A stretch of 64,000 bases of DNA from contig OZ316891.1 of NCBI GenBank assembly GCA_973895155.1, positions 25,357,899 through 25,421,898 of the forward strand, written 5' to 3'. The translations under genes were made by a program, and so were the position numbers. The notes under the pieces are model-generated. The model saw nothing but the letters and a program-made list of their open reading frames with translations, was not told where the DNA came from and ran no database searches. This DNA comes from Marsupella aquatica (lineage: Eukaryota; Plantae; Marchantiophyta). Below are positions 18,795 through 55,042 of the stretch, piece by piece. How positions within the stretch are numbered: the first letter of the stretch is position 1; every line of letters begins with the position of its first letter.

Positions 18795-20767
18795 ATGGAC
18801 AACACTTCCATGGGTAATTCTCAAACATCGGAGACATCTTTCGCTGGTTCTGTTTACACACGACGCGTTACTCGCTCGATTGCATCGCATTCTCTTCGGA
18901 ACTCTGCGCAGACTTTCCCAACGCAGAGACGAGGTATCATGGAGAATTCGAGTGATTTCATCATGGAAGACGGGTGTGAAGGGTCGCTAGCAATGGGAGA
19001 CGTGATTGCCAAACATGCAATGTCGTTCGGCACTGATTTCAGAGGAGAGCCCAAGGACCCTCCGCGTATACCGCTTTGTCGCCTAGTCAATATGGAAGTT
19101 GTTCGGACTCTCCAGAAGGAGAGTGCTTCAATCAAGAAGCTAAAAGAATCATTTCGCAGTTCCAGTTACAACTCCTCCATTGGAATGCGATTCTATGTGC
19201 AACCCGCTGATTCTGAAGGCGTCATCCAATTTTGTACCCCCGAAATCCGTGAGAGTTGGGATGCTGTCTGGACAGTCCAGAATGAGAAATTTGAAGCGGA
19301 CTGTGAAGCTGATCCAGATTTCCTTGTCTTAAAAGACAAGATGTTTTGTGTGTTCGACGGGAATCATCGTCTGTATTCCTGGTCGCAGGTAACAAAAGAG
19401 AACCCCAAAAATGTCAAGTACCACCCTCGTGTGCTATGCACTGTGTTCAAGGGAGATCGAGGTTCTCTTATTGAGATTGAAGCCGCCATGCACACTATCA
19501 ATCAGTAAGTTTGGTCATTTTCTTTGATTTGGACAAATTTTCAATTGTGGGATTTTGGTTAGCGTTTGGCGCTAACAAATTATGGTTGTATACAGATTGG
19601 GGCAAGCCGTTGTAGAACCGTCGTGGATCCTCGATGCTGACAGAATTGGTCGGATTCTGTCCCATGACCTTGATTATTACAAGACGATAATTGACGCCAG
19701 AAACTTCAAACGCTTTGAGGCAATTCGCGCAAAGACAAGGAAAGGCTCTTGGTATACGAAGAAGATGCCTTTGGAGGCCTTGTGTACATCTTGTGTGAGA
19801 ACAAGATCAAGTCATACTCTGTGCAATTCAAACTGGACATGGCGACTGCAAACACTCAAGGGAGGCCGTGGTCAAAGGATGAGGTCACCAAGCGTCATGC
19901 GGCAATGATGAAGGAGGCCACAAAAGAATGGAGCGTGAAGACCTCAAAGATCACTCCACTCCTTAGCCCCGAATTCGAAGATTTTCTGTCAACATGTGCG
20001 GAAATGTACACGCTGACAGAGAAAAACAAGCGATAACGGAAAGCAGACGCTGTGGTTTGCACGATGGATCGTGCTCGTCTCTTTACTGCCGTCTCAGCTT
20101 TGAACCCAAAGTTGTGTTCCACTCTTCTTGTGGCGCATTGCACGCCCGAACTTTGCAAGCAATTTTTCCATCCGCCGAGTGTGAACGACGAACCAGTTAA
20201 ACAATGGTGTCACACTTGGCACATGTGGAGTTGGATCGAAGGAATTTCAATGGGGATGATGCAGACAGCTCTCAGACAAGTTCAATCTGTCATGCCTCCG
20301 GAACGACTTGTCACAGGAGGTGTAGAAACTTTTGATGCTTTAGTGCAGACCATTTGCAATGATTTCAAAAGTTACGGAGATACAGTCAAGGCAAAGTTTT
20401 TTAACACAATGTGGGCATCAAAGTACGGGGAGAAAGAAGATTTTTCTTCCCAAAACCAGAAGCGGGCAAAGAGATACCTTTATCGGTTCTTCTTGTCGAT
20501 GGAGAGCAATTCTTCTGAATATTTCTGGGCTTATCCTCCTGCGTTCCAGAGGTGGTCGGTCATGGATGGGGATGATTTCAGTGAGGTTTACTCGATGTAT
20601 CCTGCAGAAGGAGCCAATCCTCCACGTGACATTTCCGTTTGGGAGCGAACAAACTGTCCCTGGTACCTTGATACTGATAAGTGGGATACACCTTTTGATG
20701 AATCTGAGAAAGACGCCTTTTTGAAATTGTCCAAATCTTTAGTTCCTCGCAAATGGTTGTCTGAGAT
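18795..20767 (+). pseudogene. MULE accessory gene, 5' half: ParB/Srx-like domain plus helical region (intron 19505-19595)
   Basis: RIPLCRLVNMEVVRTLQ..IKKLKESF..FCVFDGNHRLYSW (ParB-type DGxHR); frame-preserving GT..AG intron; frameshift ~19770, stop 20034; cut by Gypsy B and resumes in frame at 53228. Confidence 0.75.
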
Positions 20768-23700
20768 TGTGGTGCGTCCCATGGCTCCCTAAACCCAAGA
20801 AACCCCCCAGCACAAGCCAATTCCCGCAGGTTTCGCGCTTGGCGGGGCCGTTTCCGCGGCTTAGCGGCATGGGACGCTGCTAATCTCTTCTACATCTATT
20901 AACATTTTACACACATATACTGGACAGATCCTTCATCGGGTCATGAGATATGAAGCCGGCCTACTCTAGGCCTTCCCTTTATTTTTCTCTCCTTTGGTTA
21001 GGTATATTTGGATTCCGCCGCCGGAATGATCCCCAATAGGCTTGGTTAAGCCGCTAAGACCTCTCTCAGCTCGACACATCCAACTCTCACTCCCTTGCTT
21101 ACTTTCCTTTCCCTATTAGTTGATGTGGGCACTCTTCACACAAGTTAATGCGACACACAAATAGTAAAATGACTCCTTCTGACTGAGTCATACCATGCAC
21201 TTGCCATACAAACAGTACATCTCATACACAAGCTCTGCGAACTAAGCCGTGAGGCCAACTCTATTCAGCTCTTAGGCATGAGGAAACATGAATATACACA
21301 AGGTCACGGTATAACTAACCGAGAGCTTCTCTTACTACTTGATCCCAGCCGGCTGGTGCAAACTAAAAACTTGCTAAAGAAGAGGCCCTGAGCTCCCCGC
21401 AGCCTAGGTATTTATCCTGGTAGCGGATCCGCCTAATTCTTTGCAGCGTAAGCCTAATCTACCTAACAGTAATCTACCTGTCCGGAGCTACCTATGTACA
21501 GCAAGGCAGGGGCACAAGTGTTGCTCCTACCAGTGGAACCGCAATCCCACAAAGCTAAGTGTCAGGGCCGCTCCTGGTCCTGATCCTAATCTTAAACCTG
21601 GAGATCAGCGCCCGCCCGGCCCACTCACGCCTCCTACCTCCACGTCCGCCCTTCCTAAAAGGAACGGCGCCCTTGCACCGTCACGATACCGGTGGTGGAT
21701 CCTCAATGGATGCCCCCAACGCTTCCTCCTCAGCCACTGCCGTTGGCCCGCCTACTGACAGATTACCTGCCCTTGACCAAGTCAACTCTCCCTCGGCCTG
21801 ACTGGGTCCATCTTCGGCTTCGGCCTCGACACCGGCCTCGGCAATACCCACGGCTTCGGCTTCAGCCACTCCCACGGCTTTGGCTTCACCTTCTTCTAGG
21901 GTAGTTGGATCCTTAGCCGTGACCTTGTCTGGGGTCGGTGCTGGGTCTACCTCCTTGGTCACCACGGCCTGTGGAGTCGTATTACTCTTTGACCCAGAAG
22001 GTTTCCGCTTCTTCTTCGTTGCCGGCTCGGCAGCTGGTCCCTTCCCCTTCCCACTTACTTTCAGCACTGGTGCAGGTGGCGCGGTTTGTTCTTCAGCCAG
22101 TACCACTCCTGGTAACTGGTTCGCCCCAACGGGAGATGGACCTGCTGCAGCTAAGCATTTAAATACTATGGCTTGTTTCTTTAGCCGCTCCGTTTGGTTG
22201 TCGGCCCGCCGCTGTAGGTTCTCCATCTTCCTCGTGATTTCCTCCAACTCCTCCTGGGTCTCATCCAGGTCCTTACGTGCCCCCTCCAGCTCTCTATGGG
22301 CTTCCTCCTGCTCTTTGTGGGCTTCTTCCAATTCCTTCTTCAAGGTAGCCCTCTCCTCCTGGGTTGCTCTTAGCTCTTTGTCGAGCTCTGTCACGATTTC
22401 AGACTCCATTTTATCCATCTTGGCATAAGTCTGACCGAGCATATCGTCCTTCTCCTTTAGGTCGGCTTTGAAGCTGGCCATTAGGGATGCAAGCTCCTGC
22501 TGCAGCGCAATAATCCCTTGATAGGATTTCCCTAACTCGGCCTCCTTCTGCTCAAGGGCTCCGCGGCTTTTCTCGAGCTCCCCCTTCAACGCCCATTTCT
22601 TTCTTTGGGTCTCCGCCATGACCCGGTTGTTGACTGCTATATGGGCCTCCTCTACGTCTCTCAGCTCCTTCTTCCATTTCTCCCTGTCCTTGATTGCGTC
22701 GGCCAATTCTCCTTGGGCCTGAGTCAGTTTATCCTTGATAATCTGACTATCCGCCTGCGCTATGTCCAACTGCCCCTGCATGATATTTAGCTCATGCCGT
22801 TTAATCCGCAGCTCATCTTGGGCTTTCTTGGCCGTCCTTAGATCTTCAATCTCGGCTTCCATCCTCCTAAGCCGTCGGATGACCTCGTCCTTCTTGCTTC
22901 TCTCTAAAGCCACCGCTTCTTCTAATTGGTGCTTCTCCAACTGCTCCCTATGGAAAAAGGGTCCTACCTCCAACTCCTCCCCAAAGATGCCGAGCGCAAG
23001 TTCCCCACACATCTCACCATACTCCATGGCTCTATTCTTAGCGTAGGTGGAGTAAGTAGAGGTGATCGGCATCGCCCATCGCGGCCTCTGCTCCCAAGCC
23101 GTCTTGCGGATCTCTTCAATCGTGGCTAGAGGTTTGCTTCCTTTTTTGGCTAGCCGCCTGATGTCCTCCGGCCAATCTACTCCTGGTAAATCCTTTTCCC
23201 TAGCCAGGGCTGCCTCCTCTCCCTGCCTGATTCGCTCCTGAAATTCCTGCACTGTCTGTTTTATGCCGTCAAAGCTCGGGGGAGCAACATCTGGTGGAGG
23301 AGACTCAGGGCTACTCTGCTGGTTGGGGTCCCCTCGTACTACCCTTGGAAGTGTGGGGATAAACCGGCCACAGGTCCTTACTCCTGGAACGTGATGGTCC
23401 GACCCATAGCCGGAGTTATCATGGCCGCAGTCCTCCACTGCCTCCTCTACTTCTTCTACTTCCGGCTTCTCCCTCTCTTCTTCGTTGGTAGGAGCTTCCG
23501 ACAATTCTGCCTCAGATTCAGAGCTTGAGACTCCGGTAGAGGGGTTTTCCCTTCTAAGTCTGCTTAAGTTGACCTCTGGGGCAGTGTCCTGCATTGTTGT
23601 CATTGTCATTGTCGTTGTTGTTGCCGATCTCCTTTCTTTCTCCAGTAGTTTAAGCAGATTCTGCATGCCTGGTTGCTGCATCGGCAAGTCTTCCTTCCTT

Positions 23701-25343
23701 GGCTTAAACACCTGCTCAATCGTAGGGCTAACAGGTGGTTGAGGCTTTTCTGCTACCGGCCTCGGTGCTGGAGCTTCCTCGGGTGCCCTTACCTGCAGAG
23801 GAAGTACTGGGGCAAAGGTCTGACCTCTGGCATACCGGCACAACAGCGGCATGTGATAGCCAAGCCGCGACATGCTCCCCATGCCGATTACCTGCTGCTC
23901 CTCCTTTAGGATCTTCTTCAATTGGTTGAGGAGGTAGCCGTTGTAGTCCCGGCTTGGGTCAGGCCTTTCTGCCAGATAGACCTGTGCCTTGCCGATCTCC
24001 GCTCTCGGCAAGTTACAATGCATGGTTACCCGCAAGAAGTCGATCATCTCTCCTATGTGCGGGTTGGTGCAGGTGTTTCTGAAGAAGCCATTCTTCGTTG
24101 ATGGTCCGGGAAATGACCGGAACTCCTTGTCAAGCAAGGTCTTCCTGGTATCAACCTTGGTCTTATTGCCTATCGGCAAGCCAAACACTTTGGCAATTAC
24201 CTTGGGAGTAAGATAGAAATCCTTCCCATATATTCTCATGCAATTGGTCTCGGGTTCCCATGACCCCACGAATTCTAATAGGTCTGAATCCGGCACCTCT
24301 GGCTTCAGCCATGGTAATCTTACAAAGGCCTCTAAGCTAGATCCGGCCATGAAGCCTTGGTACTTCTTGGTCTGCATGGCCGTAAAGCATGCATCCTCCT
24401 CCCTTGCAAAATGTAGTTGCACCTCCACCGGTAGAGTTGCCGCCCAGCCCTTCCAGGTGTCATCCTTGGTTGCATTGGCTTTAATGGGATCGACCTCCTC
24501 TACTTCGGCTTCTCCCTGCCTCCTGCTCTACTGTTCGGCTGGCTTCATTGGTGCCGCCGACCTCGTTCTTTTGGCCGGGGTGGTTTCATCGTTGACGGCT
24601 CCCTTCCTCTTCATCTCGGCTGCCGTGGAGGTTTCTCCTAACACCGTTGCTCGGTTCCACCTTTCCGTGCTACCCTTCAATTCCCAGTGTATGTCGTTGT
24701 AGTTCTTGATGGCCTCTCGAATGCCGATGATTCTGTCTTTGCAAAACAGAAGATCGTCGAGCTGATTGGAAGTAGGCGTCCACAAGAACTCGGCCTTGAT
24801 AAGTTCGCCTCCTAAGAAAGCCGTTTTCTGTAGCTCCCACAATCGAGCGAGCTCCTGTCGTTCTCGAGCTGCCCTTTCTGATTCTTTGTCCTCGTAAGTC
24901 TTGATGTACTCAGTTGCCCGTTCAAACAGGCATCCCCAGAAATGTGCCGCTTGATTGACGTTGCTCATACCCTCCTTAGGTCGATCGTCGGTATCTACTC
25001 TCTCCCCGAGTGCTTGCCTAAACAGCTGACAGTAGTTGGCCTCCCGTAGTCGTCTGCCTAGTTCGTGCTCGCAAGTGAGCCACCATCTTCTGCGAGCGCT
25101 CCTTACCCCTCTCCTCTTCCGGCCCTTCCTCCCGTTGATCCTTCCCAGCCGCCGATGCTTAGCGCGCCCTAACCCTAATCGAGTTTTCACCCCCAGTGTT
25201 TTTACCTCCGGCCTCGGCCCGGGTTCCATAGTTGCCCCTAATTATTTATATTTTCTTGTTTTGTCCCTATACTAAGGTGTTTCCAGGGTGTATTCCTGCT
25301 TTACCTACTTAACTGGCCAAGTGATTCCTGGCTAGGCATCACA
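20768..25343 (-). repeat. 3' LTR of Gypsy B (4576 bp)
   Basis: Near-identical to 31567-34026 plus 51084-53224; preceded by the PPT; TG..CA ends. Confidence 0.95.
21681..25229 (-). pseudogene. LTR-internal ORF of Gypsy B (up to ~1180 aa; PMD-like domain plus long coiled coil), one premature stop at 24528
   Basis: ORFs 24528-25229 and 21681-24428 in one frame; the stop is CAG (Gln) in the other two LTR copies; EFVGSWEPETNCMRIYGKDFYLTPKVIAKVFGLPIG. Confidence 0.85.
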
Positions 25344-28300
25344 TAGCTCCCCACTTAATTGTGAAGCATCCTCGCGAACAACTTCATCTTCGTCCATATA
25401 GTATTTCTTGAGGCGGTCATAATGGATGTGAACTGGATACACTTCTCCTGTAATGTTGGCCAATTGTACGGAGCCATTGGAGAACCTCATGGTTACTCTA
25501 AAGGGTCCTAACCATCGAGTGTAAAGCTTCCCTGGAAACCTACTATACCTACTATCATAAAGTAACACAAGATCACCGGTGTGAATACTAACTACTTTCA
25601 ACCTTTTATCATACTACTGCTTCATGATATTCTGTCTATATTCTACTCTCTCGGTTGAAATCATTCTCGCCTCCTCTAAAGCTTCTAACCTATATTCTTG
25701 CTCCTTTAGGCTCTCCTCCGCCGAGGCTCTTTCCTCAATTGTAACTTGAAATGTTGGTATCTCAAGTTGCATGGGTACCAGGGCTTCTTGTCCAAAGGTT
25801 AAGAAGAAGGGTGTATGACCGGTAGTGGATTTATAGGCCAAATTGTAAGCAAAAACAGCAGCAAACAATTTATCATCCCAATCGAGTTTGTTCTGAGCTA
25901 CTGTCTTGTTCAAAATCTTTCCTATAATTCCATTGGCTCGTTCTGTCAATCCATTTGCCTTTGGGTGGTAAGGAGTAGTAGGCCTATGTCTAACTAAATA
26001 CTGTTCATTTAAACGACTAATTATATCATTCAGAAAATGGGTTCCTCTATCACTAACTAATTCTAGGGGTGCTCCATACCTGGTGAAGATCTGCTCATAC
26101 ATGAATCTAGCCGTAGTAATTGCATCATCCTTCGTGGTCGGTCTGGCCTCTACCCATTTAGTTGCATAATCCGTAGCCAGGATTATGTACTTGTTTCGTC
26201 GAGGGTGGGTCAGTGGTTTCAGAGGTCCGATGTAATCAATACCCCACTTCTTGAATGGTGCCAGAGGTAGAATAGGGTGCAGTGGATGTCTGGTGGACGC
26301 CCTTGGTCCTCCCGCTCGTTGACAAGGATCGCATTGTTTGATAAACTGATAGACATCCTTGTGCAACGTAGGCCACCAGTAACCGGCATTTAATATCTTT
26401 TTAGATGTGGTTACTGGAGCAAAATGTCCTCCGGCCTCTTCTCCATGCATAGCCTGTAAGACTCGTTTTACCTCTCCTTTTTCCAAACACCTTTGGATAG
26501 TGCCGCTGATTCCATACCTGTGTAGCACACCCTTAATGTACTGATACTGTCTGACCTTCCGTAAAAAGACTGCGGCTTTTTCTCGGCTTACTCCTGGCTG
26601 TAATCTGGAAGTGCTGAGAAATTGTAAAATCTCAGGGTACCATGTATCAGCTAATTCCACAACGAATAGCTCCTCGTCGGGAAATCGATCATCGATGCAA
26701 TCCGTGGCTGGTTCACCTGTGATCCTTGAAAAGAAGTTGGCATTGGCATGTAGCTTCCTCGGTTTGATCCTCAGCTCATAGTCAAACTCCTGTAATAGCA
26801 AAATCCATCTTGCTACTCTGCCTATAAGGTCCGGCTTATTGACTAGGTATTTCAAACTTTCATGATCGGTATGAAAGATTACCTTGTACCCTAGTAAATA
26901 ATGCCTAAACTTTTTACAGGAATAAATGACTCCTAATGCTTCTCTTTCTGTGGTGGAGTAGTTCCGTTCGGCATCGGCAAGCTGACGGCTTGCGAAGTAT
27001 ATGGGATGGTCCCTTCCTTTCTCATCCAACTAACTTAGTACTGAGCCGATACAGAAGCCCGAGACATCTACAAAAACATGAAAATCTTTGTTCCAGTCCG
27101 GTGCTATCATGACTGGGGCCTCAACTAACATCTGCTTCAATTCTACCACCGCTGTGACTCGTTCGGGTGTGGGTTCGAAGTCTGCACCTGCCTTGAGCAT
27201 GTTGGTTAATGGTAAGGCTAGTTTGGCAAAATCTTTAATAAACCGACGATAATACCCAATGCAGCCTAAGAAGGATCTTACATCCTTTATGTTCTTAGGT
27301 TGCATGATGTCAAGCCATATTGCTAGCTTACCTTTGTCAATCTCAATGCCCTTCTTTGATACCTTGTGACCTAGTAGCACCCCCTCGGTTACTGCAAAGA
27401 AACATTTATCTGGGTGTAATTTGAGACCTACCTCTCTGCATCTCATGAAGGTTTTCCTGAGATATTTAGCATGTTTCGACGCCTTCCCAAATACTGCAAA
27501 GTCATCAATGAAGATTTCCATGAACTTTCTCAAGTAATCATGAAAAATGTTCACCATCAATCGTTGGAACATAGCTGGTGTGTTGCAGAGTCCAAACGGC
27601 ATACGATTGAAGACATAGATCCCCCATTCCGTGATGAAGGCCGTCTTGATTTGGTCTTCCTGCCGAATCCTGATTTGGTTATAACCAGAGTACCCATCCA
27701 TGAATGAATATAGTTCATGACTGGCTACCATGTCTAGTACCATATCAGTAAAGGGTAAGGGAAAATGGTCTTTTAACGTCGCTTCATTCAGTTTCCTGTA
27801 ATCCTGACAAACCCGGATCTTGGGTTTACCATCGGGTCCAGCTTTCTTGGGAACTATCACAATTGGAGACACCCAGTCTGAATGCAGGACTGGAGTGATG
27901 AATCCAGCTTCCACTAGTTTGTCGATTTCCGTTTTGACCAGCAGGGAATACTTCGGGTTCATCCTTCGAATTGGTTGTCGAAATGATTTGGCCCCTAACA
28001 TGAGATCGATTCGGTGTTCTCCTAGTTTTGGGTCTACTCCCTTTAGATCCTGGTGACTCCATGCGAACACATCCTGAAATTCAATCAATAAGTCACTGAT
28101 CTCTTTCTCGAGCTCAGGTGCTAGGTTTCTCCCTAAATTCAGTTCCCTTCCCTCTCCTAAGTCTAGCTTCTGATATTGCCGTGCTTGGATCATATTAATC
28201 TGCTTCTTTAAATTCGGGTCCAGCTCGGCTTCCAGTCTCTCCAGTCTCATACCTCCATAAATAGGAATCTCGGCTGTACTAGCCGAGTCAGTTTCTACCT

Positions 28301-29514
28301 TGATGCCCACAGATTGTCCCCTTGCCGGTCTATGCGGTTTTGAATTGTTTGTTGGCTTCCCATCCTGACTCGGCTCTGGATTCTGTCTGTGCATCTCATT
28401 CACCTCTTCTTCCTGAGGGTCAGGCCGCTGTGCTCTTCCGGCTTCTAATAGGGCCTCAATTTGTTCTGCCCTTGTAATCGGCTTGTATGCCGATCCCTTG
28501 GTATTTAATTCCTTGCCGATGATCGATGGCGTTGTGAACCCTGCCGGCTCTGCCACAACGCGTGCAAAAAATCCACCGTCTCGGGTATTGCTCCCCACTT
28601 AGCCATTTCATCCAACTGGCTTACTTCTTGTGTTTCCTCCGGAATAGAAGCTAAAAAGGTGGACTCTATTGTAAAGCAGTCCTCGACTTCTTCGTATTCT
28701 TCTTCCAAGTCACCTTCCATTGGTTCTTGCCATAATCCACTAGGGGATACCTCTGGTCCAAAGACACTTTCTTCGGTTTGGTCAGCGAGGCATTCTAACC
28801 ATCGTACCTCATCGGCTGATTCCAGTCCACTGTCGTACCCGTCTACCTCCCTGATGCTTCTTTTGCGGTCATCCTTGGTATCCCAGGATACCGTGATAGA
28901 GGGGGTCCCAAAAGTGAACTCCTTCTTACCCCAATCCTCTATTACCTTGGCTAGGTATAGCCATGGCCTACCAATCAATAGCCAAAATGACGTAGGATTT
29001 ACCGGTTTCATTACTACATAGTTAATGCTAAAGAAGATGCCTCCTATTTCTGTTTTGATGCCGGTTAACACTCCCGTGGGAATGACTGATATCCATTGGC
29101 CATGTTCAACACTCTTCCAGTCATCTGTGGTGTTAGACCCCACCCTTTTGCTGTTGAATCAATCATAATACATACCCCTGATCCTCCATCAATGGGTACC
29201 CGTAGTAATAATTCTCCTTGAATCATTAATGGTAAAGCGGGGGCTCCTTGATCTTCTTCTATCATCAGCACGTCGGATTTGGTTGCTACCTTGGGTAATC
29301 TCGGCTTGCCGAGAATAGCCTTCCTTAATTGCTTCCTGAAGTACGGGCTATTTTTAAGTAGTTGACCTACTGTTGCCGAGACTCTAGATTCTAGTACATC
29401 TTTAGCCAGGTCATAGGGAACAATCGGCTTCTCCCTTGGTGGTGTCTCTATCTTGGATTCGGCTTGTTTTGCCATGCTAATCTCCACAGCTGTTGGATCC
29501 TCCGAAGCAAACAA
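25332..29514 (-). pseudogene. pol: pol of Gypsy B (PR-RT-RH-INT) with frameshifts and stops
   Basis: VPIDGGSGVCIM..LLIGRPWL protease; KDHFPLPF, MDGYSGYNQI, FIDDF; ASRQL..TEREALG; WGIDYIGP, SDRGTHF, ANGLTER, RWLGPF. Confidence 0.95.
25344..25360 (-). promoter_or_regulatory. Polypurine tract of Gypsy B
   Basis: AATTAAGTGGGGAGCTA directly before LTR TG. Confidence 0.85.
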
Positions 29515-29523
29515 TGCTTTTGC

Positions 29524-31497: not shown

Positions 31498-31544
31498 TAC
31501 CTATACTTCCTTTCTAACTTCATATCTCACGGCTTAAGAAATGC

Positions 31545-31562: not shown

Positions 31563-31566
31563 AAAA

Positions 31567-42884: not shown

Positions 42885-43024
42885 GTAGATTCACAGTCAC
42901 ACCCCACGCAGCAGGAAACAACAATCACTTCAACTGCGACCAACCATGACAAGATGAGTTAGTTCAAGGATCACATTTATTACAAAATTGTGATTTATAC
43001 AAAAATATGAGGGACTCCTACTCC

Positions 43025-43888: not shown

Positions 43889-44591
43889 CTAATCACTGCA
43901 GACCGGAAGATAATGCGTTCACCTGATAATCGGAGGGCCCTTAAAATGCTGCGTTTATAACTTGGTCCAGTCCAGTCGTCTGGTGAGTCTCTGCTCCGAT
44001 TCCAAACGGGAGAAATATTGGGACAAACGTACTAGACACCTGCAAGCATGCACTTCATAGTTTGAATATGTGCCTTCACAATATTGAAGGTGACAAGTGC
44101 AATTGTTTTGTGATGCCACATACAGATGTTTCGTATGGGGGCAGACATTCAATGAGAATACAAAATGTTGGTACACTTTAAGGGAATTCTCGCAAATTAA
44201 ATAGCCTTGTAACTTATATGCTCATAATGAGAAGTCCTGATTTAATTTAAGCAGTGTCATGTAAGTCGTGATCAAAATGATTGCAGAGTTAAAAAAGTTC
44301 CTAGAGGGCTTAAGGGGAGATTTTGAAGGCATGTACCCAGGAACAAGTAATGAACTTAGGGTACTTGTTGCCTAAGCATCCTCTCCTACAGAGGTCCTTC
44401 TTCTCAAAATTGGAATGTCTGCAATCTCCAAGGTATCCACATCAGGTGCACTATGCATGTACATTATTCAGGTTCAAAGCCAAGAAATGTGATCTCTCAT
44501 GGGAGTGTGCAAAGTAGGATCTATGGCATGGCGATGACAATAGAAGATCCATCGATCAACACCATGTGCAGAGTGATCATAGATGTGTCTG

Positions 44592-45155
44592 TCACAAGCA
44601 TAGCCTTCGGGCTTGACGCTCCTTCAAACAATGAAAGTGCCACATGGTGGGACACCTAACACAGTGGACTATGTCCACCCAGAAATCTTCATCGTGCTGA
44701 CCACATGCCTTGCACTTATGAAGTGGGCAAGCTGTGGCAAGATCGGGCAAACATGAAAAACAAAAGAACCTCACACAATATCTGTCAGGGCATTTCCTAA
44801 CAAGTGGTGGAGCATCAACAGAGCCCTCATAAGACCCCAACTTCCCACACTGTGCACACTTAGCCTGCTTCTCCAAACAATCAGTGCACATCCAGCCTCC
44901 TTGGTGTGCTGACGGGAGGCCCACCCCTGGACAGTTGTTTTCTGCAGCAAGGTCAGACTCCGGGTTGAGGTGGAAATGCCTCATGCAAGGGCCCTCACAT
45001 ATGGCTAAGTCACCACCATCGTCACAAATGGCACAACAATGAGCTGCCTTCTGGAAAATCTGACTTGCGGAGAAGTTACTACCATCTGGCCCAACTACAC
45101 CTGTGTTGCTCACCTCTGTCCCCCGCTTCTTGGCTCGGATTTTAGGGCGTGCCAT
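44592..45155 (-). CDS. CACTA cargo ORF: EDM2/NSD-type composite PHD-finger protein
   Basis: CAICDDGGDLAICEGPCMRHFH..WMCTDC..CAQCGKLGS..CPDRYCVRFF..CPLHKCKAC..CVRCPTMWHFHCL; basic N-terminus. Confidence 0.82.
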   Translation of the reverse strand: MARPKIRAKKRGTEVSNTGVVGPDGSNFSASQIFQKAAHCCAICDDGGDLAICEGPCMRHFHLNPESDLAAENNCPGVGLPSAHQGGWMCTDCLEKQAKCAQCGKLGSYEGSVDAPPLVRKCPDRYCVRFFCFSCLPDLATACPLHKCKACGQHDEDFWVDIVHCVRCPTMWHFHCLKERQARRLCL

Positions 45156-48100
45156 GCCTACGCATGAGACAGATAGTACAATTTAGCAGAGTGCACAGAC
45201 AATACAATTTAGTGCAGTGTACAAAAAGTACAGTGTAGCATATAGACTAGAGTGGCAATTGCTACTGCAATGAAATGTTCACACACATGTGCAGAGTAGA
45301 CATACTTTTTGGTTTGTTGAGCCCACACTAAAAACTGATCCCCTCGTACAATAGCTCCACCTACACCTCAATTTTGTGGCTATGATTCACCAAAGGAGAT
45401 CTGCAACAAGATTTAATGCATTTGAATCACATATAACAGTCGTGACATGTAAAACAGGCATTTTTTGAACAGGATTGGTATCAAGCAGTGTGATCAGGGT
45501 TGTAATTTATACATCCTAAATAGGCTATGATAGTGAATGAGACAAATAAGTTAGGCATAAATCACTTTTTCCAGGTTATCACATGGCCCATTAATTCCAG
45601 TCTTTGAAAGGAGACTTTTAAGTGAGCTTGCTAGCCTCTTAAATTAGGATATTGTACTTAGTGCAGCCATAATAGGATAAGTTATGTACTGTTGACCCTA
45701 AACCCTGGACCCAAAATTGGTCATAATTCAAAATCTTAAGTAAATATCCTCTCTGTTCAAGTCAAAGTGTTAAGTTATAGGTCAATGGTCTCTGGTTTGT
45801 GCATGCGGTGTGACAAGTGGTCCTCTAGAGCGTGTGATCCAAACATGTGTAGACACCAAAGTGACCGGTGGTGGGGTCTGGGAGGGCAGGACAAGTGACA
45901 TTGCCAGGCACACTGCAGGATGGCGAGTGGTTCCAGATGATACATTGTGCTCTGTGAAAAAACCGACATCCAAGAGAACGGTCATCCAACTCTAGGCCAG
46001 AAGCCCTACAGGCAGGACAGTCATATTGGCAACTGTGCACACACCCTTGGGCCCTAATTTGTGGCGGGTCATGTACAAGAGACAGAAATAACAAGGATGT
46101 TGGGAAGGGTGGAGAAGCAGGTACAGGCCGACTGTAGTTGTTCCTGGCAACAACTGGGTACTCAAAGTACCATGCAGACTGGGCTGGAAGGATCCCAAGT
46201 CTGACATACTCAAGGCGCAACATCTCTGCCTTGCGTGCAAGCCGCACATGTTCAGCGTTGCGGGTCCTCACCATAAGTGTTGCTTTTGTGGAGATGTCGT
46301 GTGTTCACGTCCTCTGATAAGCACCTTCGATCAGCAAGGTGAGCAGGAGCTGTACTTGCCTCACCAACAGCAACCAACCTTAAATTATCAGTTCCCACTC
46401 ACTGTGTCATTCCATTGGTTCCAGCTAGGGGTCACAATGTAAACATAGCATGAAACACTCCTAATCAACTTGCTTACAAACTACAATATCCAGAAAGAGT
46501 GAAAGTCTCACCCTCCAGTGAGCAGCAGAGAGGTAGTTCACTAGATGTGTTGATGTGCAGTTAAACCTCCACTATTGCTTACTTCTGGTGTATGCTGCTC
46601 AGAAGAAGACATATTAGTAGCAGCAAATTGCAAATAATGGCCATAAGCAAACCGTGAGAGTTTGCAGAATGCTACGACAAATCCATCACAGCAGTGCTCC
46701 ACAGGAATGAAACCAAGCAAAATTTGGTGACCTCGGCCAATGACAAGGCCAATGTAGTGAACAATCCTTGACCGATCAGGATATGGATTGGAATTACAAT
46801 TAGTCAGCTCTTCTTCTTTGTTTTCTAACTCTGGGGGAAATGAGCATGACCAGGGAATTCTCTGAGAAATAGAAGTGCACAGGGAAAATGAAATTGGCTC
46901 ATTCAGCTCTGCAAGATGGACCATTGCAGCATACTTGGACAGTTGTTCCGCAATACATAAAATACCCTGACTTACATGCAATTGATACAATCTGCTTCTG
47001 TTGGCTGTCCTACAGCTCATGGCAGTGCCGTTGGGACAGGGTAAGTGAATATTGCCATAGCTGAAGCACATTGAGCTTGCAGCAACAAGTGAAGGAGCAT
47101 GGCCAAAAGCAGAAAAGACAGACAGGTTTTACAAGAAGAAACTAACAACCGCCAATCTGCTCAAATCCGCTGCATAGATCAAACCCTCCGAACTACACAG
47201 CCCTCCTTTGAAAACAATCCAATGTGCTTTGGCTGGTGGATGACAAGGACTGGGAGAAGAGGAAACGTCTGCACAATCAATCCAAATGACGGTACACAGA
47301 GACCAGGCACAGAGAGGATTTGTGCTTAGACAAAAACCACAAATTGTAGCATGGGCGCCATAGCATTCTAGACAAAGCACAAAACATAGAATCTATGAAT
47401 CTATGACTCATGGACTAACAAAATGATTGGGTAGCATGGCAAAAGGAAAGACAAATTTCAAAATGACAACATGGCCCGTTTCCACCATTCATTTGACGTT
47501 GCTAGGTGTCCGTAAGATGACTGACCCACAAACAATCCCGACAACCTCATCCGACAGACTGCTTTTCTAGTGTGAAGAAATACATGATTACAAGCAACAC
47601 CACGCCTCATCCAAGCAGGGAATTGAAAACATAACCATGTCATTCCTATATTGGACAGTGTCCTCTGCCATTGCACTGCATAGTTGTTATTCCATGTTGG
47701 TTGTCAATAGTTTGTTGGCTTGCCACAACCTAGATAGAACAATAAAATATTGTACATGAATACAACAAGAAAAATCTGCATACAGCGATGGCCCGGTCAC
47801 TTGAGGAAAAAACAAAACTAAGAAGGCAGGCACACGGGCAACCGAGAAAAAAAGCTAGTGGCGCCTCGCGGAGAATCCAGAATGGTAATGCCCTCGCCCA
47901 GAAGCTTGGGAAACAAAAGAGAAAAAAGCAAAAACGAGCTACCGACCACCGTCTTGACCAGGCCTGCCACAAGGTATGGCTGGAGGCTGTGGTCCCCCCC
48001 TCAGTAAAGAAAAGGATGCAGGTTGGAGCACGGGGCACAAGGCATGTTTGGATCCAGGAGGAGCAAAACAGTAATGTCAAGCAGGAAGTGTGGAGAGACC

Positions 48101-49680
48101 AATCAGTAAACAAAAATAGGGGAGAACAAACATACATCAGCAGCAACAGGAAACGAGAAAGTTGATTTAGGAGGGATTGTAGGGAGAGAGCTTTTGGTGG
48201 GCTCGGCTGTGCGTGAAATATCGGGAGATAGATGCGCGAGAGAGTGAGGAGGGTGGCAAGCGGAAGACGGGTTGGGACTGGACCCTTGGTGCCGGTGGGT
48301 AATATATGGGGTTTCAGCAGACTTGGGGCCAGTTTGAGGAGGATTGAGAAGCGCGCACCCCACGTTCTTGGGTGGTGGTTGGGTGGGGTTTTGTTTGATT
48401 GAAGAAGAAATCACCATTCTCTTCTAGAAGAAAGAAAATCACAGGAAATAGTGGACGGGAGAACAAGGCATGTAATAGAGAACAACAAGGCATGTAATAG
48501 AGACAGTGCGCAGCTCAGCTCCGAGGTCACACTTTATGATGCACAGGGGGTCCTTGGTTGCACGTAGGAGAAGGACTGAATCACTGTGGCTGCTCTTCTC
48601 TACTATCAAAGCACCCGGCTGGCAGCTCCGCAAACACTGATCGTAGCTACAATCTCTACACCGTTGATTGAAGAGCAGCTGCAGCACAGTAAGGAGCTCC
48701 CACAGCCTCCCTCTTCAAAGCTCGGTTGACCTAGCTCTACGATCGACGGAGCATGGGCGCCAGACAAAGCACAAACTGTACCATGGAGCTGGAGAAAAAC
48801 ACAGAGTAATTGAAGCCTAACAATACCCTTCTCAGCTCCTGATTGAATGAGGAAAAACACATTACAAGACACATTGCAGGCAATAGGATTTTAACAATGA
48901 AGTCTCGCCTGTGCTGACAGAATACCTGCTTACAGCCACGCGTTGCTCATCCTCCCACAGTTCGGTGGCACACTATCCAGATGGCATGACGCATGCCTTA
49001 ACTTATGACGATTTGCGCAGCTCAAATCAAGTAGGTTGTCCCCACAAAAAGACAGAGGACAACAAAGAAAAGCAATGTAGCCGTGATGTCTTACCAGCCC
49101 TGACAATGGGAGCTTCAAAGGCGGTGCACTATGGCTGAAATGGCAGCACGCTGCTCGAACACTAAAGCAACACAAAACTTGGACTCTCACCTTATGCAAC
49201 TCCTGGCTTGTATTCAGCTGGCGTTGGCCCACTCTAAGCTCCTGCGCCGCTCCGACTGCCAGTCGTTCTGTAGACGGTCTGTATCCTCCCTGACTGCAGC
49301 TCCTCCCCGCCCCCAGCTCGTCACCCGCGTCTTCTCCCCAATTTGTGGTGAGCTCCTCCTCGACCACAGCACCCTAAACTGCTTTGCCCAGCCTCTGATG
49401 GCCTTCACGTTGTTACCGATTGTCGCTCCCCACAAAGTCCACAATCCATAAACCAGGCAGATAGTGCGCCCGTAGAACAGATGCAACCCGCATGCAGCTT
49501 CACCAGCTCAATGGCAGCTCAACAGCTTAAGGGTGCAGCAAAAGGGCGTTGAATAGGTTGTCTCACCTCACCCTTCGAGAGCCGGTCATTGCAGCATCCC
49601 TAAACTCCCGATCCCTCTTCTCGGATTCCACAGAGCCGACCACAAGAAAATGGGAACACTAAACCTCACTGTAGAGACGT

Positions 49681-49812
49681 TCCCACCAAGATTACACGGA
49701 AAACCTTGCTCCGATCCCTAAGCTCCCAATCCCATCGAGAGAACACGATAAAACCTTGCTCCAATCCCTAAACTCCCGATCCCACCAAGAGAACACAATA
49801 AACCTTGCTCCG
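49681..49812 (+). repeat. ~50-bp tandem repeat (~2.6 units) in the CACTA 5' region
   Basis: AAACCTTGCTCC at 49701, 49751 and 49800. Confidence 0.8.
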
Positions 49813-50128
49813 CAAGTTGGGAATGTGGCGGGATCCCTAAACACATCAACAACCTGCTAAGTGTAAGCAAAGTTGCATAACCGGCTTGTTCCCTTCCAAC
49901 GGTCGCGCGACTCGGGTGTCCAAACGGTACTGCAAGCGGTACAGGCCCCTAGCTTGGGATACCCTTACCAAAGTCACTGGTGTTGCCGACATGGTAACGG
50001 CAAGATTATCCTGACCCTCCATAAACCCCCTCCATTCACTCAAGTGTTGTGAGTGACAACTTAGTGTAGTGTCGCTAAACAAATACTTTGGCCTTAGCAA
50101 ATATCTGTGGTGATCGAACTTCATTAAA

Positions 50129-50874
50129 CCAAACCTCTTTTGGTCACAAATAAGGCCATTTAATGAGTGATGCCCCTTGTCATCACCCTCTTAATTTATG
50201 CAATTACCCCTCCTGAACACAATTGAACATTGTCCAAATTGCCTACCCTCATGAATAATTTGTCAATTATCTTTCCCGACATATATGATGTCAATGGACA
50301 TGATGGGGAACATGATGTCAATGGACATGATGCCAACGATCCAATGGTTCCTAAACCCCCATCCCCTTAACATGCAACCCCCGACCCTTGACATCAAACC
50401 CCCCTAAACCCCCTTTAGTGAAAACCCAGCCACCCCCTAGCCTTGACATATAAACCCCCTAAACGTCTTCACAACTCGACTGTGGCCAGACTATCTTTGC
50501 AATGCCAAGGGCCATTTTTAGAGTGCATGCCGCTTGCAAGCTCAGGCTCTCAAGATCCTCCCACGGCAGCAAACAAGTTAGGGTCCCTAAACATGTTCCT
50601 TTACCCTAAACCATTGCGTCACTATTTCAATCGAGTGTTCTTTGCCTGGACAACCCCCTAACCCTAAACCCACACCCCCTTGAGACCGGTACAAATCTAC
50701 CTTTGTGCATCTTGGCCTTTTATTGATGGAGTTAGTAATCGATCCCTCCGTAGTCCACCCTCCATGAACCTCACTCCAAAACCTTTTTTGTCACAAATAA
50801 GGCCATTTATTGAGTTATGCCCCTTGCTATCTCCCTCTTTACAGAATTACCCCTCCTCAATATAAGTGAACATT
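50129..50874 (+). repeat. ~100-bp direct repeat pair (50129-50231 and ~50776-50874)
   Basis: Shared GTCACAAATAAGGCCATTTA.TGAGT.ATGCCCCTTG..AATTACCCCTCCT..GAACATT. Confidence 0.75.
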
Positions 50875-51083
50875 ACCCATGATGTGCTAGACTATTCACC
50901 GTTCACAAAGTAGCAAGGTTACTTCTCATAGTCTTTTAGTGAACCATAAAACACTAATAGTCTTTTGTAGTCTTCAACAAAACTGGTGCAATGGGTGCGA
51001 GTCGTTTCAAGTATGGAAAAAGGACTTAGTGGGCTTAGTCCTATAAGGTATGGTCTAAATTGCCCCGGATTCTACTAGTGCTA

Positions 51084-53224
51084 GCCAGGGCTGCCTCCTC
51101 TCCCTGCCTGATTCGCTCCTGAAATTCCTGCACTGTCTGTTTTATGCCGTCAAAGCTCGGGGGAGCAACATCTGGTGGAGGAGACTCAGGGCTACTCTGC
51201 TGGTTGGGGTCCCCTCGTACTACCCTTGGAAGTGTGGGGATAAACCGGCCACAGGTCCTTACTCTTGGAACGTGATGGTCCGACCCATAGCCGGAGTTAT
51301 CATGGCCGCAGTCCTCCACTGCCTCCTCTACTTCTTCTACTTCCGGCTTCTCCCTCTCTTCTTCGTTGGTAGGAGCTTCCGGCAATTCTGCCTCAGATTC
51401 AGAGCTTGAGACTCCGGTAGAGGGGTTTTCCCTTCTAAGTCTGCTTAAGTTGACCTCTGGGGCAGTGTCCTGCATTGTTGTCATTGTCATTGTCGTTGTC
51501 GTTGCCGATCTCCTTTCTTTCTCCAGTAGTTTCAGCAGATTCTGCATGCCTGGTTGCTGCATCGGCAAGTCTTCCTTCCTTGGCTTAAACACCTGCTCAA
51601 TCATAGGGCTAACAGGTGGTTGAGGCTTTTCTGCTACCGGCCTCGGTGCTGGAGCTTCCTCGGGTGCCCTTACCTGCAGGGGAAGTACTGGGGCAAAGGT
51701 CTGACCTCTGGCATACCGGCACAACAGCGGCATGTGATAGCCAAGCTGTGACACGCTCCCCATGCCGATTACCTGCTGCTCCTCCTTTAGGATCTTCTTC
51801 AATTGGTTGAGGAGGTAGCCGTTGTAGTCCCGGCTTGGGTCTGGCCTTTCTGCCAGATAGACCTGTGCCTTGCCGATCTCCGCTCTTGGCAAGTTACAAT
51901 GCATGGTTACCCGCAAGAAGTCGATCATCTCTCCTATGTGCGGGTTGGTGCAGGTGTTTCTGAAGAAGCCATTCTTCGTTGATGGTCCGGGAAACGACCG
52001 GAACTCCTTGTCAAGCAAGGTCTTCTTGGTATCAACCTTGGTCTTATTGCCTATCGGCAAGCCAAACACTTCGGCAATTACCTTGGGAGTAAGATAGAAA
52101 TCCTTCCCATATATTCTCATGCAATTGGTCTCGGGTTCCCATGACCCCACGAATTCTAATAGGTCTGAATCCGGCACCTCCGGCTTCAGCCATGGTAATC
52201 TTACAAAGGCCTCTAAGCTAGATCCGGCCATGAAGCCTTGGTACTTCTTGGTCTGCATGGCCGTAAAGCATGCATCCTCCTCCCTTGCAAAATGTAGTTG
52301 CACCTCCACCGGTAGAGTTGCCGCCCAGCCCTTCCAGGTGTCATCCTTGGTTGCATTGGCTTTAATGGGATCGACCTCCTCTACTTCGGCTTCTCCCTGC
52401 CTCCTGCTCTGCTGTTCGGCTGGCTTCGTTGGTGCCGCCAACCTCGTTCTTTTGGCCGGGGTGGTTTCATCGTTGACGGCTCCCTTCCTCTTCATCTCGG
52501 CTGCTGTGGAGGTTTCTCCTAACACCGTTGCTCGGTTCCACCTTTCCGTGCTACCCTTCAATTCCCAGTGTATGTCGTTGCAGTTCTTGATGGCCTCTCG
52601 AATGCCGATGATTCTGTCTTTGCAAAACAGAAGATCGTCGAGCTGATTGGAAGTAGGCGTCCATAAGAACTCGGCCTTGATAAGTTCGCCTCCTAAGAAA
52701 GCCGTTTTCTGCAGCTCCCACAATCGAGCGAGCTCCTGTTGTTCTCGAGCTGCCCTTTCTGATTCTTCATCCTCGTAAGTCTTGATGTACTCAGTTGCCC
52801 GTTTGAACAGGCATCCCCAGAAATGTGCCGCTTGATTGACGTTGCTCATACCCTCCTTAGGTCGATCGTCGGTATCTACTCTCTCCCCGAGTGCTTGCCT
52901 AAACAGCTGACAGTAGTTGGCCTCCTGTAGTCGTCTGCCTAGTTCATGCTCACAAATGAGCCACCATCTTCTGCGAGCGATCCTTACCCCTCTCCTCTTC
53001 CGGCCCTTCCTCCCGTTGATCCTTCCCAGCCGCCGATGCTTAGCGCGCCCTAACCCTAATCGAGTTTTCACCCCCAGTGTTTTTACCTCCGGCCTTGGCC
53101 CGGGTTCCATAGTTGTTCCTAATTATTTATATTTTCTTGTTTTGTCCCTATACTAAGGTGTTTCCAGGGTGTATTCCCGCTTTACCTACTTAACTGGCCG
53201 AGTGATTCCTGGCTAGGCATCACA
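51084..53224 (-). repeat. 5' LTR of Gypsy B, proximal part; carries the 5' part of the LTR-ORF (from 53110)
   Basis: Matches ~23203-25343; ORF open until the CACTA junction. Confidence 0.95.
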
Positions 53225-53227
53225 GAG

Positions 53228-55042
53228 ATGAAGGAAGGATTGGTGGGAGAAGTTGAAGCTTCTGCAGTGGAGCTTCAAAAAATATGTGAGACTGAAGTCT
53301 TACATGTTGACAGGAGCCAAAAACCTCGCGCAAAAGTAAAAGTTGATACAGGATTGAATAGCCCATCCATGAGATCCAGAAGAAAACGTAAGTTATATGA
53401 CTTTTTGAAGTTCTTCTTGATCTTTTCCTCTGAAATTCACTTAGTTGTTTGCATTGATTTTGGTTAGCGCCAAGCGCTATTTTAAACTATTAAATGTATA
53501 CTCATACAAGAGAATTTAGAAAGTAAATGTTTGGCTAGCGTCGGGCGCTGTTATAGTTTCCCCAGTGTTCTTACCTTTTCGATTCTCTGTAGGGGGTAGG
53601 AAATCAGAGGGAGAAGAAACTCAAGATGCAAAGACGACCATTACCCCTGATCAATCTGAAGCAAACACTGAGGCTGCCGATGCTACCCAAGAGCAGACTC
53701 CTCCTGCAAATACCAACATTGATCGTCCGATTGATGCCACAAGCACCAAAAAAAAGAAGAAAAAAACTCTTGATCTTGGTTCTTCTTCTAGAGATTTGTA
53801 TGCATGTACTGGCGTCCAACGAGAAGTTGGTCAATTCAAGTCCAAAGTTTGCCGTCATATATTTGTTGAGTCCAGTCTAATGGACTTTTTTGATTCTGTT
53901 TTTACAAAAGAGACTAAACCCAGGTGGGTGACGAATGTCGAGAAGTGGGGAAAAGACTTAGTGACACTTGGTCTCCGGGAGAAAGGGGTAGTTAGGGGAG
54001 GCAAGTTGAGATCTTTTGGGGTGGATGCGGGTTTTGTCTACCTACCGACAGGTCTACGACCTTCTTTGCTTCACCGAAAATCGCCAAAGTGGAATGTACC
54101 GGATCACTGAATGGTTGGCTCTTTCTTTCGGGCAATGGACCCATTTCTTGTCGATGATGGGTTGTTAGCAGTTTTGCACACTGGGGAGTATGACCAGATC
54201 TCCCAAGTAATTTTGGCCAGCCAAGATTCCCAAAAGTTCCAGTGCCTCAAAACGCTCAACGTTGTTATGGGTGCCCCAATGTACATGGCCAAAAGCGATT
54301 GTCAGGTAATTGTCCTTTTGAATCAAGAGAATCATTTGCTAGCGCTTGGTGCTATTAATAGATCTCATTTCATGTTTGATGTCCTCGTGTACGCAGGGTC
54401 TTTTGGGTAGCGCCAGGCGCTATTAATATATGTTACCAAATCTCATATTGAATATTGTTTATTTTCCAGGTTTTCACCTTAAGACTTGATATCTTTAGTC
54501 GAGTTACATCGAAGGTTAGGGTCCCCAAAGATTCAAAGTTCAAACCTTTGTCTTCAACCGAGGACCCTTCAATCACAAACCTCATTGGGCTGCAGAGTTT
54601 GAAGAAGGATCCTGTTCCAGAAGCTGCATTTGCAGCGAATGCACGACTACCGGTTGGCTTCATGCAGTCTGTCCTGGAGTTAATTTCTCGTCCGGGAGAT
54701 ATTATTATGGACTGGACGGTTGGGTCAGGAAGTACATTTGTGGCTGGTGATTTTTGTGGCCGTTTCATCCTTGGGATTGAGAATCGCAAGGACTTTGTTT
54801 CTATTGCAGAGAGGATATACACTGACTTGCTCCTCCCGAAAGAATCGAGTGAGGCTGGTCCGAGCAAAGACATGGAGAAAAAAGTGAAAGATAAAGTTTG
54901 ATCTGTTCTGAATTTTGATTCTGAAGAAGAAGAAGACGATGTACCTGATGAAGAGGCCGGGATTGATGTCCAGAAAGAAGGAGAGAAAAAGGATGAGGGG
55001 AATTCAGAAGGAGAAACGGAAGATTCAGATTCTTTTGAGTAA
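53228..55042 (+). pseudogene. MULE accessory gene, 3' half: beta-class (N6_N4_Mtase-like) DNA methyltransferase fold plus acidic tail; introns 53388-53592 and 54306-54469
   Basis: VDAGFVYLPTGL..KWN..FFRAMDPFLVDDGLLAVL (motif IV-VI region), then RLPVGFMQSVLELISRPGDIIMDWTVGSGSTFVAGDFCGRFILGIENRKDFVSIAERI (motif X-I-II); stops at 54108 and 54899. Confidence 0.78.

What the first reader, a model, noticed from the sequence alone, without database searches (positions are those of the whole stretch)
18795..55042. MULE transposon carrying a spliced ParB-like + N4C/N6A-methyltransferase-fold gene, divergent from its transposase
Seen: removing Gypsy B and one GAGAT joins ..KWLSE|MKEGLV.. in frame, giving one gene with three GT-AG introns, an N-terminal VFDGNHR motif and a C-terminal RLPVGF..SRPGDIIMDWTVGSGSTFVAG..GRFILGIE segment. 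It lies inside the TIRs and 9-bp TSD, head-to-head with the transposase. Established: DGxHR is the ParB/Srx signature; KP..L...S.PGD.VLDPF.GSGTT..A....R..IGIE is the motif X-I-II block of permuted beta-class amino-MTases; ParB-MTase fusions are typical of phages and prokaryotic mobile elements; eukaryotic N4C MTases are known only sporadically (bdelloid N4CMT, Marchantia DN4MT1); known MULE accessory genes are MURB, VANC, ULP1-like and PMD. Inference: a prokaryote-derived DNA-modifying or DNA-binding module domesticated as a MULE accessory protein, possibly for self-marking or anti-silencing, and a possible route for amino-MTases into plant genomes.
Basis: partly seen in the sequence, partly recalled or inferred. 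Interest (0 to 1): 0.92.

Follow-up and report, generated by a model that had tools for sequence, protein, structure and literature searches.

The report
Plant transposon with bacterial-style helper gene
A broken jumping gene, probably from a seed-free land plant, carries beside its transposase a second gene resembling bacterial ParB and DNA-methylase proteins, and is studded with one 15-letter palindrome that this helper protein likely binds to keep the element from being silenced, a design already reported in algae.

Summary
The architecture is real. A 10.5-kb Mutator-like element (9-bp TSD, short TIRs) is split by a 32-kb Gypsy/CACTA nest. Head-to-head with the transposase lies a spliced gene: ParB/Srx fold (confident model; all 11 PDB matches are ParB-type), helical middle, beta-class amino-methyltransferase fold (Pfam above cut-off). 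It aligns end to end with a 1,207-aa Riccia protein, and a Gypsy-free junction exists in a DNA run. (1) This copy is dead: one frameshift, four stops. (2) The catalytic DPPY/SPPY motif is altered in this copy (YLPT) and in all 22 named relatives (D-x-P-S/T, DVPF), so methylation is doubtful. (3) Sixteen copies of a 15-bp palindrome sit only in the element's introns, spacer and ends. The pairing is a family trait: 9 of 15 testable related loci have the transposase divergent upstream, none in the other orientation. The design is known from Ectocarpus Sola1 and red-algal transposons; I found no land-plant report. Best reading: a VANC-like self-recognition and anti-silencing factor (inferred, untested). 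A link to Marchantia DN4MT1 is unsupported. New variant of a known kind.

The parts
13715..13723 (.). left 9-bp target-site duplication AAAACTACA
13724..13775 (.). left terminal inverted repeat (starts with G, about 40-50 bp, imperfect)
14081..15583 (-). transposase 3' exon (approximate ends): candidate catalytic Glu (TGSEAVH), C-terminal CxC..CKH SWIM-like motif read by eye; 2 stops
   Evidence: no Pfam hit
15784..17811 (-). transposase 5' exon: Cys/His-rich DNA-binding region, D..D..DxxH..W core; 4 in-frame stops
   Evidence: no Pfam hit
18795..19504 (+). accessory gene exon 1: ParB/Srx-fold domain (IPLCR..VR..DGNHR..MHxxN)
19596..20767 (+). accessory gene exon 2, 5' part (middle domain); frameshift near 19755-19770, TAA at 20034
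20768..53224 (-). inserted Gypsy LTR retrotransposon (LTR copies about 98% alike, TSD GAGAT) holding a nested CACTA element at 34027-51080
53230..53387 (+). accessory gene exon 2, 3' part after the insertion
53593..54305 (+). accessory gene exon 3: linker and MTase motifs IV-VI; motif IV reads YLPT at 54039-54050; TGA at 54108
54470..55047 (+). accessory gene exon 4: MTase motifs X-I-II (PF01555, 34.6 bits) and acidic stretch; stops at 54899 and 55040
55151..55445 (+). predicted exon 5: conserved LPxYA..F[IV]DxEA acidic tail
   Evidence: profile built without the window hits it at E 1.3e-5
13913..56560 (.). 16 copies of the palindrome TAGCGCCNGGCGCTA starting at 13913, 13980, 15668, 15725, 18028, 18132, 18235, 18340, 19560, 53465, 53536, 54340, 54408, 55525, 56362, 56546; all outside the modelled exons
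56650..56699 (.). right terminal inverted repeat
56700..56708 (.). right 9-bp target-site duplication AAAACTACA

Best explanation
This is a dead copy of a two-gene Mutator-like transposon whose second gene encodes a ParB-fold plus methylase-fold protein that likely binds the element's own repeated 15-bp palindromes and would keep the element from being silenced, probably without acting as a normal DNA methylase. Shown: element structure, gene model, both folds, family-wide divergent pairing with the transposase, non-canonical motif IV, palindromes confined to the element's non-coding DNA, and different palindromes in relatives. Inferred steps: (1) the protein dimerises through a nucleotide-binding ParB domain and recognises the two-fold symmetric site, as ParB does with parS; (2) sites in the shared promoter spacer, every intron and both ends load it along the element; (3) the MTase fold, which keeps its SAM-binding motifs, acts as a base-binding or shielding module, and the acidic tail may contact histones, lowering host cytosine methylation, as VANC does for VANDAL elements; (4) protein and site co-diverge, so each subfamily protects only itself.
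For: Palindrome: 16 matches against 1.0 expected, 0 of 100 shuffles reach it; 16 of 16 in 3,660 non-coding bases of the element, 0 in 6,859 coding bases, 0 in the other 53,481 bases. Arrays of 4 or more copies of some palindrome lie upstream of the ParB exon in 13 of 27 related loci against 3 of 26 distal control windows, Fisher p 0.006, loci not independent; the sequences differ between subfamilies. VANC21 binds short motifs in introns, intergenic and terminal non-coding regions, and targets differ between families (PMC5735166, passages). ParB fold: pLDDT 95 model; Z 7.9, rmsd 2.6, 97 residues to Caulobacter ParB; 11 of 48,161 chains reach Z 2 and all are ParB/Srx-type (membership of SerK, SbnI, SspE, BrxU recalled). 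DGNHR or EGNHR in 107 of 124 motif matches. Linkage: 9 of 15 de-duplicated loci with at least 6 kb upstream carry the same transposase family on the opposite strand, 0 on the same strand. Motif IV aligns to phage DPPY and is D[LM][PS][ST] in 21 and DVPF in 1 of 22 named relatives. Locus L010 gives an open 1,088-aa frame over ten predicted exons with DYPE at motif IV, so the altered motif is not only decay. Red-algal ParB-bearing accessory genes also lie beside inverted-repeat arrays.
Against: No binding, expression or methylation data. Transposases can themselves bind cognate copies and activate them (abstract), so the palindromes may be transposase sites. The fold match is modest: Foldseek best E 0.022, Z under 8, no Pfam ParB hit among 100 members. 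No helix-turn-helix or other sequence reader was identified; the middle domain was not modelled. Asp of motif IV and a downstream P-x-W-N are conserved across clades, which could mean a non-canonical active site. 14 of 27 upstream windows show no array, and some arrays are plain tandem repeats. The histone-contact idea rests on a recalled motif only.
Confidence: 0.45

Rival explanations
1. The protein is an active amino-methyltransferase with a non-canonical site: it docks on the palindromes and writes 4mC or 6mA on its own element, which blocks or hides from 5mC silencing.
For: Complete beta-class order IV..X-I-II; SAM-binding glycine loop and acidic residue kept. Asp kept in 22 of 22 named relatives, DVPF in one fern protein, DIPW in decayed loci L031 and L036, conserved P-x-W-N nearby. 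Unusual strand-4 motifs occur in some eukaryotic clades (PMC4738411 section 8). The window's palindrome contains CG and CCWGG cytosines (sequence).
Against: No member seen has D/N/S-P-P-Y/F/W; replacing Ser and Tyr of SPPY abolishes rotifer N4CMT activity. The window has Tyr for Asp, and the listed differences in diverged sibling contigs across GFVYLP are synonymous (only 40 of 615 rows shown). Transposon-borne inactive MTase folds have precedent in DIRS1.
Confidence: 0.22
2. The palindromes are transposase sites, and the accessory protein is a transposition co-factor (end pairing, target capture or insertion), like maize MURB, not an anti-silencing factor.
For: Sites occur near both ends. Transposases can be sequence-specific regulators of their own copies (abstract). 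ParB proteins bridge and spread on DNA (established knowledge). Shared divergent promoter layout.
Against: Most sites are internal: in all three confirmed accessory-gene introns, the transposase intron and the spacer, the pattern described for VANC targets. Does not explain keeping an MTase fold.
Confidence: 0.25
3. The gene is a captured passenger with no role for the element.
For: This copy and most fetched loci are decayed; 6 of 15 testable loci show no transposase upstream; no TIR pair found in 8 loci searched.
Against: Same orientation in 9 of 9 linked loci across clades of about 30% identity; 26 dispersed MTase-part proteins on 8 large Riccia contigs; first-intron position shared by many relatives.
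Confidence: 0.08

Closest known systems
ParB-like plus N4C/N6A methyltransferase accessory gene of Ectocarpus Sola1-1_Ec32 (PMC12477816; passages read)
   Same: One protein of similar size (1,104 aa against about 1,200) with ParB-like and amino-MTase domains, on the strand opposite the transposase; self-modification proposed.
   Different: Brown alga and Sola-1 transposase there; land plants and a 9-bp-TSD Mutator-like transposase here. Motif IV state and palindromes are not given in the passages read. Direct homology was not tested (sequence not at hand).
Plavaka accessory genes PAG2/PAG3 of Bostrychia, also in Chondrus Mutator elements (bioRxiv 10.1101/2025.02.11.637652; passages read)
   Same: ParB-like domain and PF01555 methylase carried by DNA transposons, Mutators included; inverted-repeat arrays beside the ParB gene.
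   Different: There ParB is fused to a 2OG oxygenase and the methylase to a SET domain, in separate genes; here both are in one protein.
VANC/VANDAL anti-silencing system of Arabidopsis (PMC5735166; passages read)
   Same: MULE accessory protein; short family-specific motifs in introns, intergenic and terminal regions.
   Different: VANC is an unrelated protein with 8-9-base non-palindromic motifs and shown activity; here the site is a 15-bp palindrome and activity is untested.
Phage beta-class amino-MTases and ParB/Noc/KorB CTP clamps
   Same: Motif order, SAM-binding motifs (159 phage records hit, best E 1e-6 among those listed) and ParB/Srx fold with GxxR motif.
   Different: Long middle domain, introns, altered motif IV; no relative of the ParB part in GTDB genomes by a pattern search; no specific donor identified.
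Marchantia DN4MT1 and rotifer N4CMT (passages)
   Same: Beta-class amino-MTase fold in a eukaryote.
   Different: Host genes with SPPY and proven 4mC activity; DN4MT1 has no extra domains and N4CMT is not described with ParB.

Membership tests
MULE/Mutator superfamily | 8-10-bp target-site duplication | tested here: met
   exact 9-bp TSD, unique among offsets tested; feature as in PMC5225508
MULE/Mutator superfamily | terminal inverted repeats | tested here: met
   about 40-50 bp imperfect TIRs, shorter than typical long MULE TIRs
MULE/Mutator superfamily | DDE core with CxxH and W | tested here: inconclusive
   conserved D (FDVM), D (MADNA), [DC]xFH and W in 8 aligned relatives, read by eye; the motifs are shared with hAT
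MULE/Mutator superfamily | profile match to MULE, MuDR or SWIM families | tested here: inconclusive
ParB/Srx superfamily | ParB/Srx fold | tested here: met
   Z 7.9, rmsd 2.6, 97 residues; below Z 8 but no unrelated fold listed in the wide search
ParB/Srx superfamily | GxxR nucleotide-binding motif | tested here: met
   G 92, N 97, H 91, R 82 of 100 rows
canonical ParB CTP clamp | HTH parS reader, C-terminal dimer domain, CTP hydrolysis | not tested
   middle domain not modelled; weak hits point also to DGQHR/DndB-type ParB (E 0.13; E 0.066)
beta-class N4C/N6A DNA methyltransferases | motif order IV..X-I-II and SAM-binding motifs | tested here: met
   PF01555 34.6 bits, cut-off 26.7; alignment to a phage MTase
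beta-class N4C/N6A DNA methyltransferases | catalytic (D/N/S)PP(Y/F/W) | tested here: not met
   YLPT in the window; 0 of 22 named relatives canonical; DYPE in intact L010
beta-class N4C/N6A DNA methyltransferases | methyl transfer to DNA | not testable with these tools
   needs an assay
algal ParB-MTase transposon accessory proteins (Sola1-1_Ec32 type) | ParB-like plus amino-MTase in one protein, opposite the transposase | tested here: met
algal ParB-MTase transposon accessory proteins (Sola1-1_Ec32 type) | sequence homology to the algal proteins | not tested
   algal sequences not at hand; none among the 30 clusters whose names were looked up
VANC-type anti-silencing system | family-specific motifs in non-coding parts of the element | tested here: met
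VANC-type anti-silencing system | accessory protein binds the motif and lowers DNA methylation | not testable with these tools
   needs EMSA/ChIP and methylomes

The most novel reading that the evidence does not exclude
Liverworts, ferns and other seed-free plants harbour an old, diverse transposon family that runs a bacterial ParB-parS-style system on eukaryotic chromatin: a nucleotide-gated clamp loads at element-specific palindromes, spreads along the element, and uses a rewired methylase fold (new active site or reader) plus a histone-binding tail to defeat silencing, giving a programmable family of protein-palindrome pairs.
Probability: 0.25. Interest if true: 0.88.

Novelty: new variant of a known kind. 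Interest (0 to 1): 0.6.

Why it matters
How transposons escape host methylation is understood for very few systems, VANC above all. This family extends the algal ParB-methylase accessory design to land plants and supplies what a test needs: a predicted binding site per subfamily, an apparently intact gene (L010; Riccia R1sor_027256) and hosts related to tractable models. If it works as inferred, it is a second, independent plant anti-silencing system built from bacterial parts, and a set of natural protein-palindrome pairs for targeting chromatin. If it is an active methylase, it would put 4mC or 6mA on plant transposons through a new catalytic motif.

Tried and rejected
No genome is held for the window, so sibling copies with TIRs could not be read whole. 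Single-sequence fold failed (pLDDT 30). Pfam found no ParB family for exon 1 or 100 relatives; the profile found nothing in PDB sequences, nor did the Riccia MTase profile. A search for longer relatives of exon 4 found none (weak by the tool's own note). Single-protein scan of metagenomes found nothing; GTDB none; viral contigs one 20-residue match, dropped; transposase in viral contigs none. The transposase search gave 7 unnamed relatives and no Riccia or fern protein, so transposase linkage in the named hosts is untested. No TIR pair in 8 loci. No RNA holder listed: splicing is inferred, not observed. A closer look at motif IV and the 54108 stop in sibling contigs was not obtained, so whether these are copy-specific is open. 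The protein atlas gave no answer; no complex prediction was run. Rejected: one-off capture; two unrelated genes joined by chance (end-to-end match to one Riccia protein); a DN4MT1 link (different motif and architecture, no tree possible). Literature searches for a land-plant report found only the two algal papers; Iyer et al. 2011 (PMID 21507349), cited there for green-algal cases, is not held, and supplements of these papers were not seen; they may list land-plant members.
Full report
Element. A 9-bp duplication AAAACTACA flanks 13724-56699; it is the only match among 40 symmetric offsets and four lengths tested. The ends are imperfect inverted repeats of about 40-50 bp. A Gypsy element (20768-53224, TSD GAGAT, LTR copies about 98% alike) sits inside, with a CACTA element nested in one LTR. 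Without them the element is 10,514 bases. The left gene (ATG 17811, minus strand) has six in-frame stops. It has 7 relatives in the protein search, six covering the whole searched region at 49-56% identity. It shows conserved D, D, [DC]xFH and W and a SWIM-like end by eye but hits no Pfam, NCBIfam or PDB profile. Mutator-like is therefore likely from TSD, TIRs and motifs (features as in PMC5225508, passages), not proven.

Accessory gene. The conceptual protein, with X at breaks, aligns from residue 31 to 1056 with one Riccia sorocarpa protein, R1sor_027256 (1,207 aa; 25% identity, E 7e-73). A contig of run X1 reads straight across the Gypsy site, and hundreds of contigs at 80-100% identity were laid on the right half from organisms A and B, so the family is multicopy and uninterrupted copies exist. 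This copy is dead: a frameshift near 19755-19770 and stops at 20034, 54108, 54899 and 55040. A profile from eight Riccia tails and L010, built without the window, hits 55215-55379 (E 1.3e-5), and an intron 55048-55150 joins it in frame, giving a five-exon model of 1,208 codons. No RNA run was listed, so splicing is inferred.

ParB part. Exon 1 has 206 relatives at E 0.001 among 1.84 billion representatives. Of 30 clusters looked up, the named ones are Riccia sorocarpa, Adiantum nelumboides and A. capillus-veneris; the rest are unnamed. The host is thus probably a seed-free land plant (inference). With a 100-row alignment the model reached pLDDT 95. Foldseek ranked ParB, KorB, sulfiredoxin and Noc first but at E 0.022 or worse; phage ParB proteins led the viral library. 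VIA-align gave Z 7.9, rmsd 2.6 over 97 residues to Caulobacter ParB, and in a search of 48,161 chains only 11 reached Z 2, all ParB/Srx-type (membership of four of them recalled). DGNHR is conserved. No Pfam ParB model hits.

Methylase part. Exon 4 passes the PF01555 cut-off (34.6 against 26.7 bits) and matches DpnA, CcrM and MboIIA. Aligned to a phage enzyme, the DPPY position falls on YLPT in the window, on DLPS, DLPT, DMPT, DMPS, DLSS or DMSS in 21 Riccia proteins, and on DVPF in one fern protein (22 examined). Locus L010, an open frame of 1,088 residues over ten exons that I predicted, has DYPE. Five listed differences across GFVYLP in diverged sibling contigs are synonymous, suggesting Tyr is not unique to this copy, but only 40 of 615 rows were shown. 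In rotifer N4CMT, SPPY to APPA abolishes activity (PMC8885841, passages). Against a dead enzyme: Asp and a nearby P-x-W-N are conserved, and SAM motifs are kept.

Family trait. A metagenome scan found 92 loci and kept 80; with one viral locus, these collapsed to 56 groups at 97%, and I dropped two weak ones (L068, L081), leaving 54. Of 15 groups with at least 6 kb upstream, 9 carry the same transposase family on the opposite strand and none on the same strand; the same 9 appeared with the un-iterated profile. Of 18 with at least 6 kb downstream, 1 has a transposase hit. Of 25 with at least 3 kb downstream, 17 have the MTase part on the same strand (profile iterated on these loci; the first round found 1). 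Four groups show all three parts. No TIR pair was found in 8 loci. In Riccia, 26 MTase-part proteins lie on 8 large contigs, four of them one locus tag from a ParB-part protein; their transposase neighbours could not be checked.

TAGCGCCNGGCGCTA occurs 16 times (1.0 expected): all in the element's 3,660 non-coding bases (three accessory-gene introns, transposase intron, spacer, both ends), none in 6,859 coding bases, none in the other 53,481 bases (exon 5 and a degenerate ORF near 55770-56317 were counted as non-coding there, and no copy falls in them). Relatives carry other palindromes, for example 17 copies in L004. Arrays of four or more lie upstream of the ParB exon in 13 of 27 loci and in 3 of 26 distal windows (p 0.006; loci not independent; some arrays are tandem repeats). 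This is the layout of VANC targets (PMC5735166, passages) and the symmetry of parS sites (established knowledge). A preprint abstract shows transposases can also act on cognate copies, the main rival.

What is known. Ectocarpus Sola1-1_Ec32 carries a 1,104-aa ParB-like plus N4C/N6A MTase gene opposite its transposase, and the authors propose self-modification (PMC12477816, passages). Bostrychia Plavaka elements and Chondrus Mutators carry ParB-like and PF01555 accessory genes with inverted-repeat arrays (bioRxiv 10.1101/2025.02.11.637652, passages). Iyer et al. 2016 (PMC4738411, passages and section 8) describe no such land-plant clade in what I read and note inactive MTase folds in DIRS1. DN4MT1 has TSPPY (bioRxiv 10.1101/2021.02.12.428880, passages). 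Searches gave no land-plant report; Iyer 2011 was not held and no supplements were read. Earlier notes of this scan describe similar elements in other genomes; I saw them after forming my reading, and they are not independent support.

Verdict. Real, family-wide, dead in this copy. It works most likely like a VANC-type self-recognition factor built from ParB and methylase folds (0.45); transposition co-factor 0.25; active non-canonical methylase 0.22; passenger 0.08. It is not filed as a beta-class methyltransferase because the catalytic motif test failed. New variant of a known kind; interest 0.6.

Noticed in passing
window 34027-51080: CACTA element (CACTA..TAGTG, 3-bp TSD) of 17 kb nested in the Gypsy LTR, with Tnp2 transposase and extra ORFs with weak F-box and NSD-like PHD hits.
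   Followed up: partly
window 21684-25241 and 51044-53122 (minus), 56879-59535 (plus): The Gypsy family carries a long extra ORF (948 aa in one copy) inside LTRs of about 4.6 kb; the 693-aa copy scanned had no Pfam hit.
   Followed up: partly
window 55151-55445; L010 near 4200-4450: Conserved tail LPxYA..F[IV]DxEA followed by acidic residues in window, Riccia and L010; resembles acidic histone-binding motifs of chromatin factors (recalled, not tested).
   Followed up: partly
window about 55770-56317, plus strand: Degenerate ORF of about 160 codons with one stop inside the element's right end; possible third gene.
   Followed up: no
window 16771-17385, minus strand: The transposase's Cys/His-rich region ending in HMGVHNHP looks like a GCM/WRKY-type zinc-binding domain (recalled; no Pfam hit).
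   Followed up: partly
L010 1-4830: Apparently intact member of a distant clade with nine introns, against four in the window; a candidate for assays.
   Followed up: yes
window 6971-8884, plus strand: A second Gypsy element left of the MULE also carries a long extra ORF (638 aa) after pol, without a significant Pfam hit.
   Followed up: partly
L080 and L046, distal downstream windows: Palindrome arrays of 13 and 5 copies more than 6 kb downstream of the ParB exon; may be other elements or the far end of the same one.
   Followed up: no
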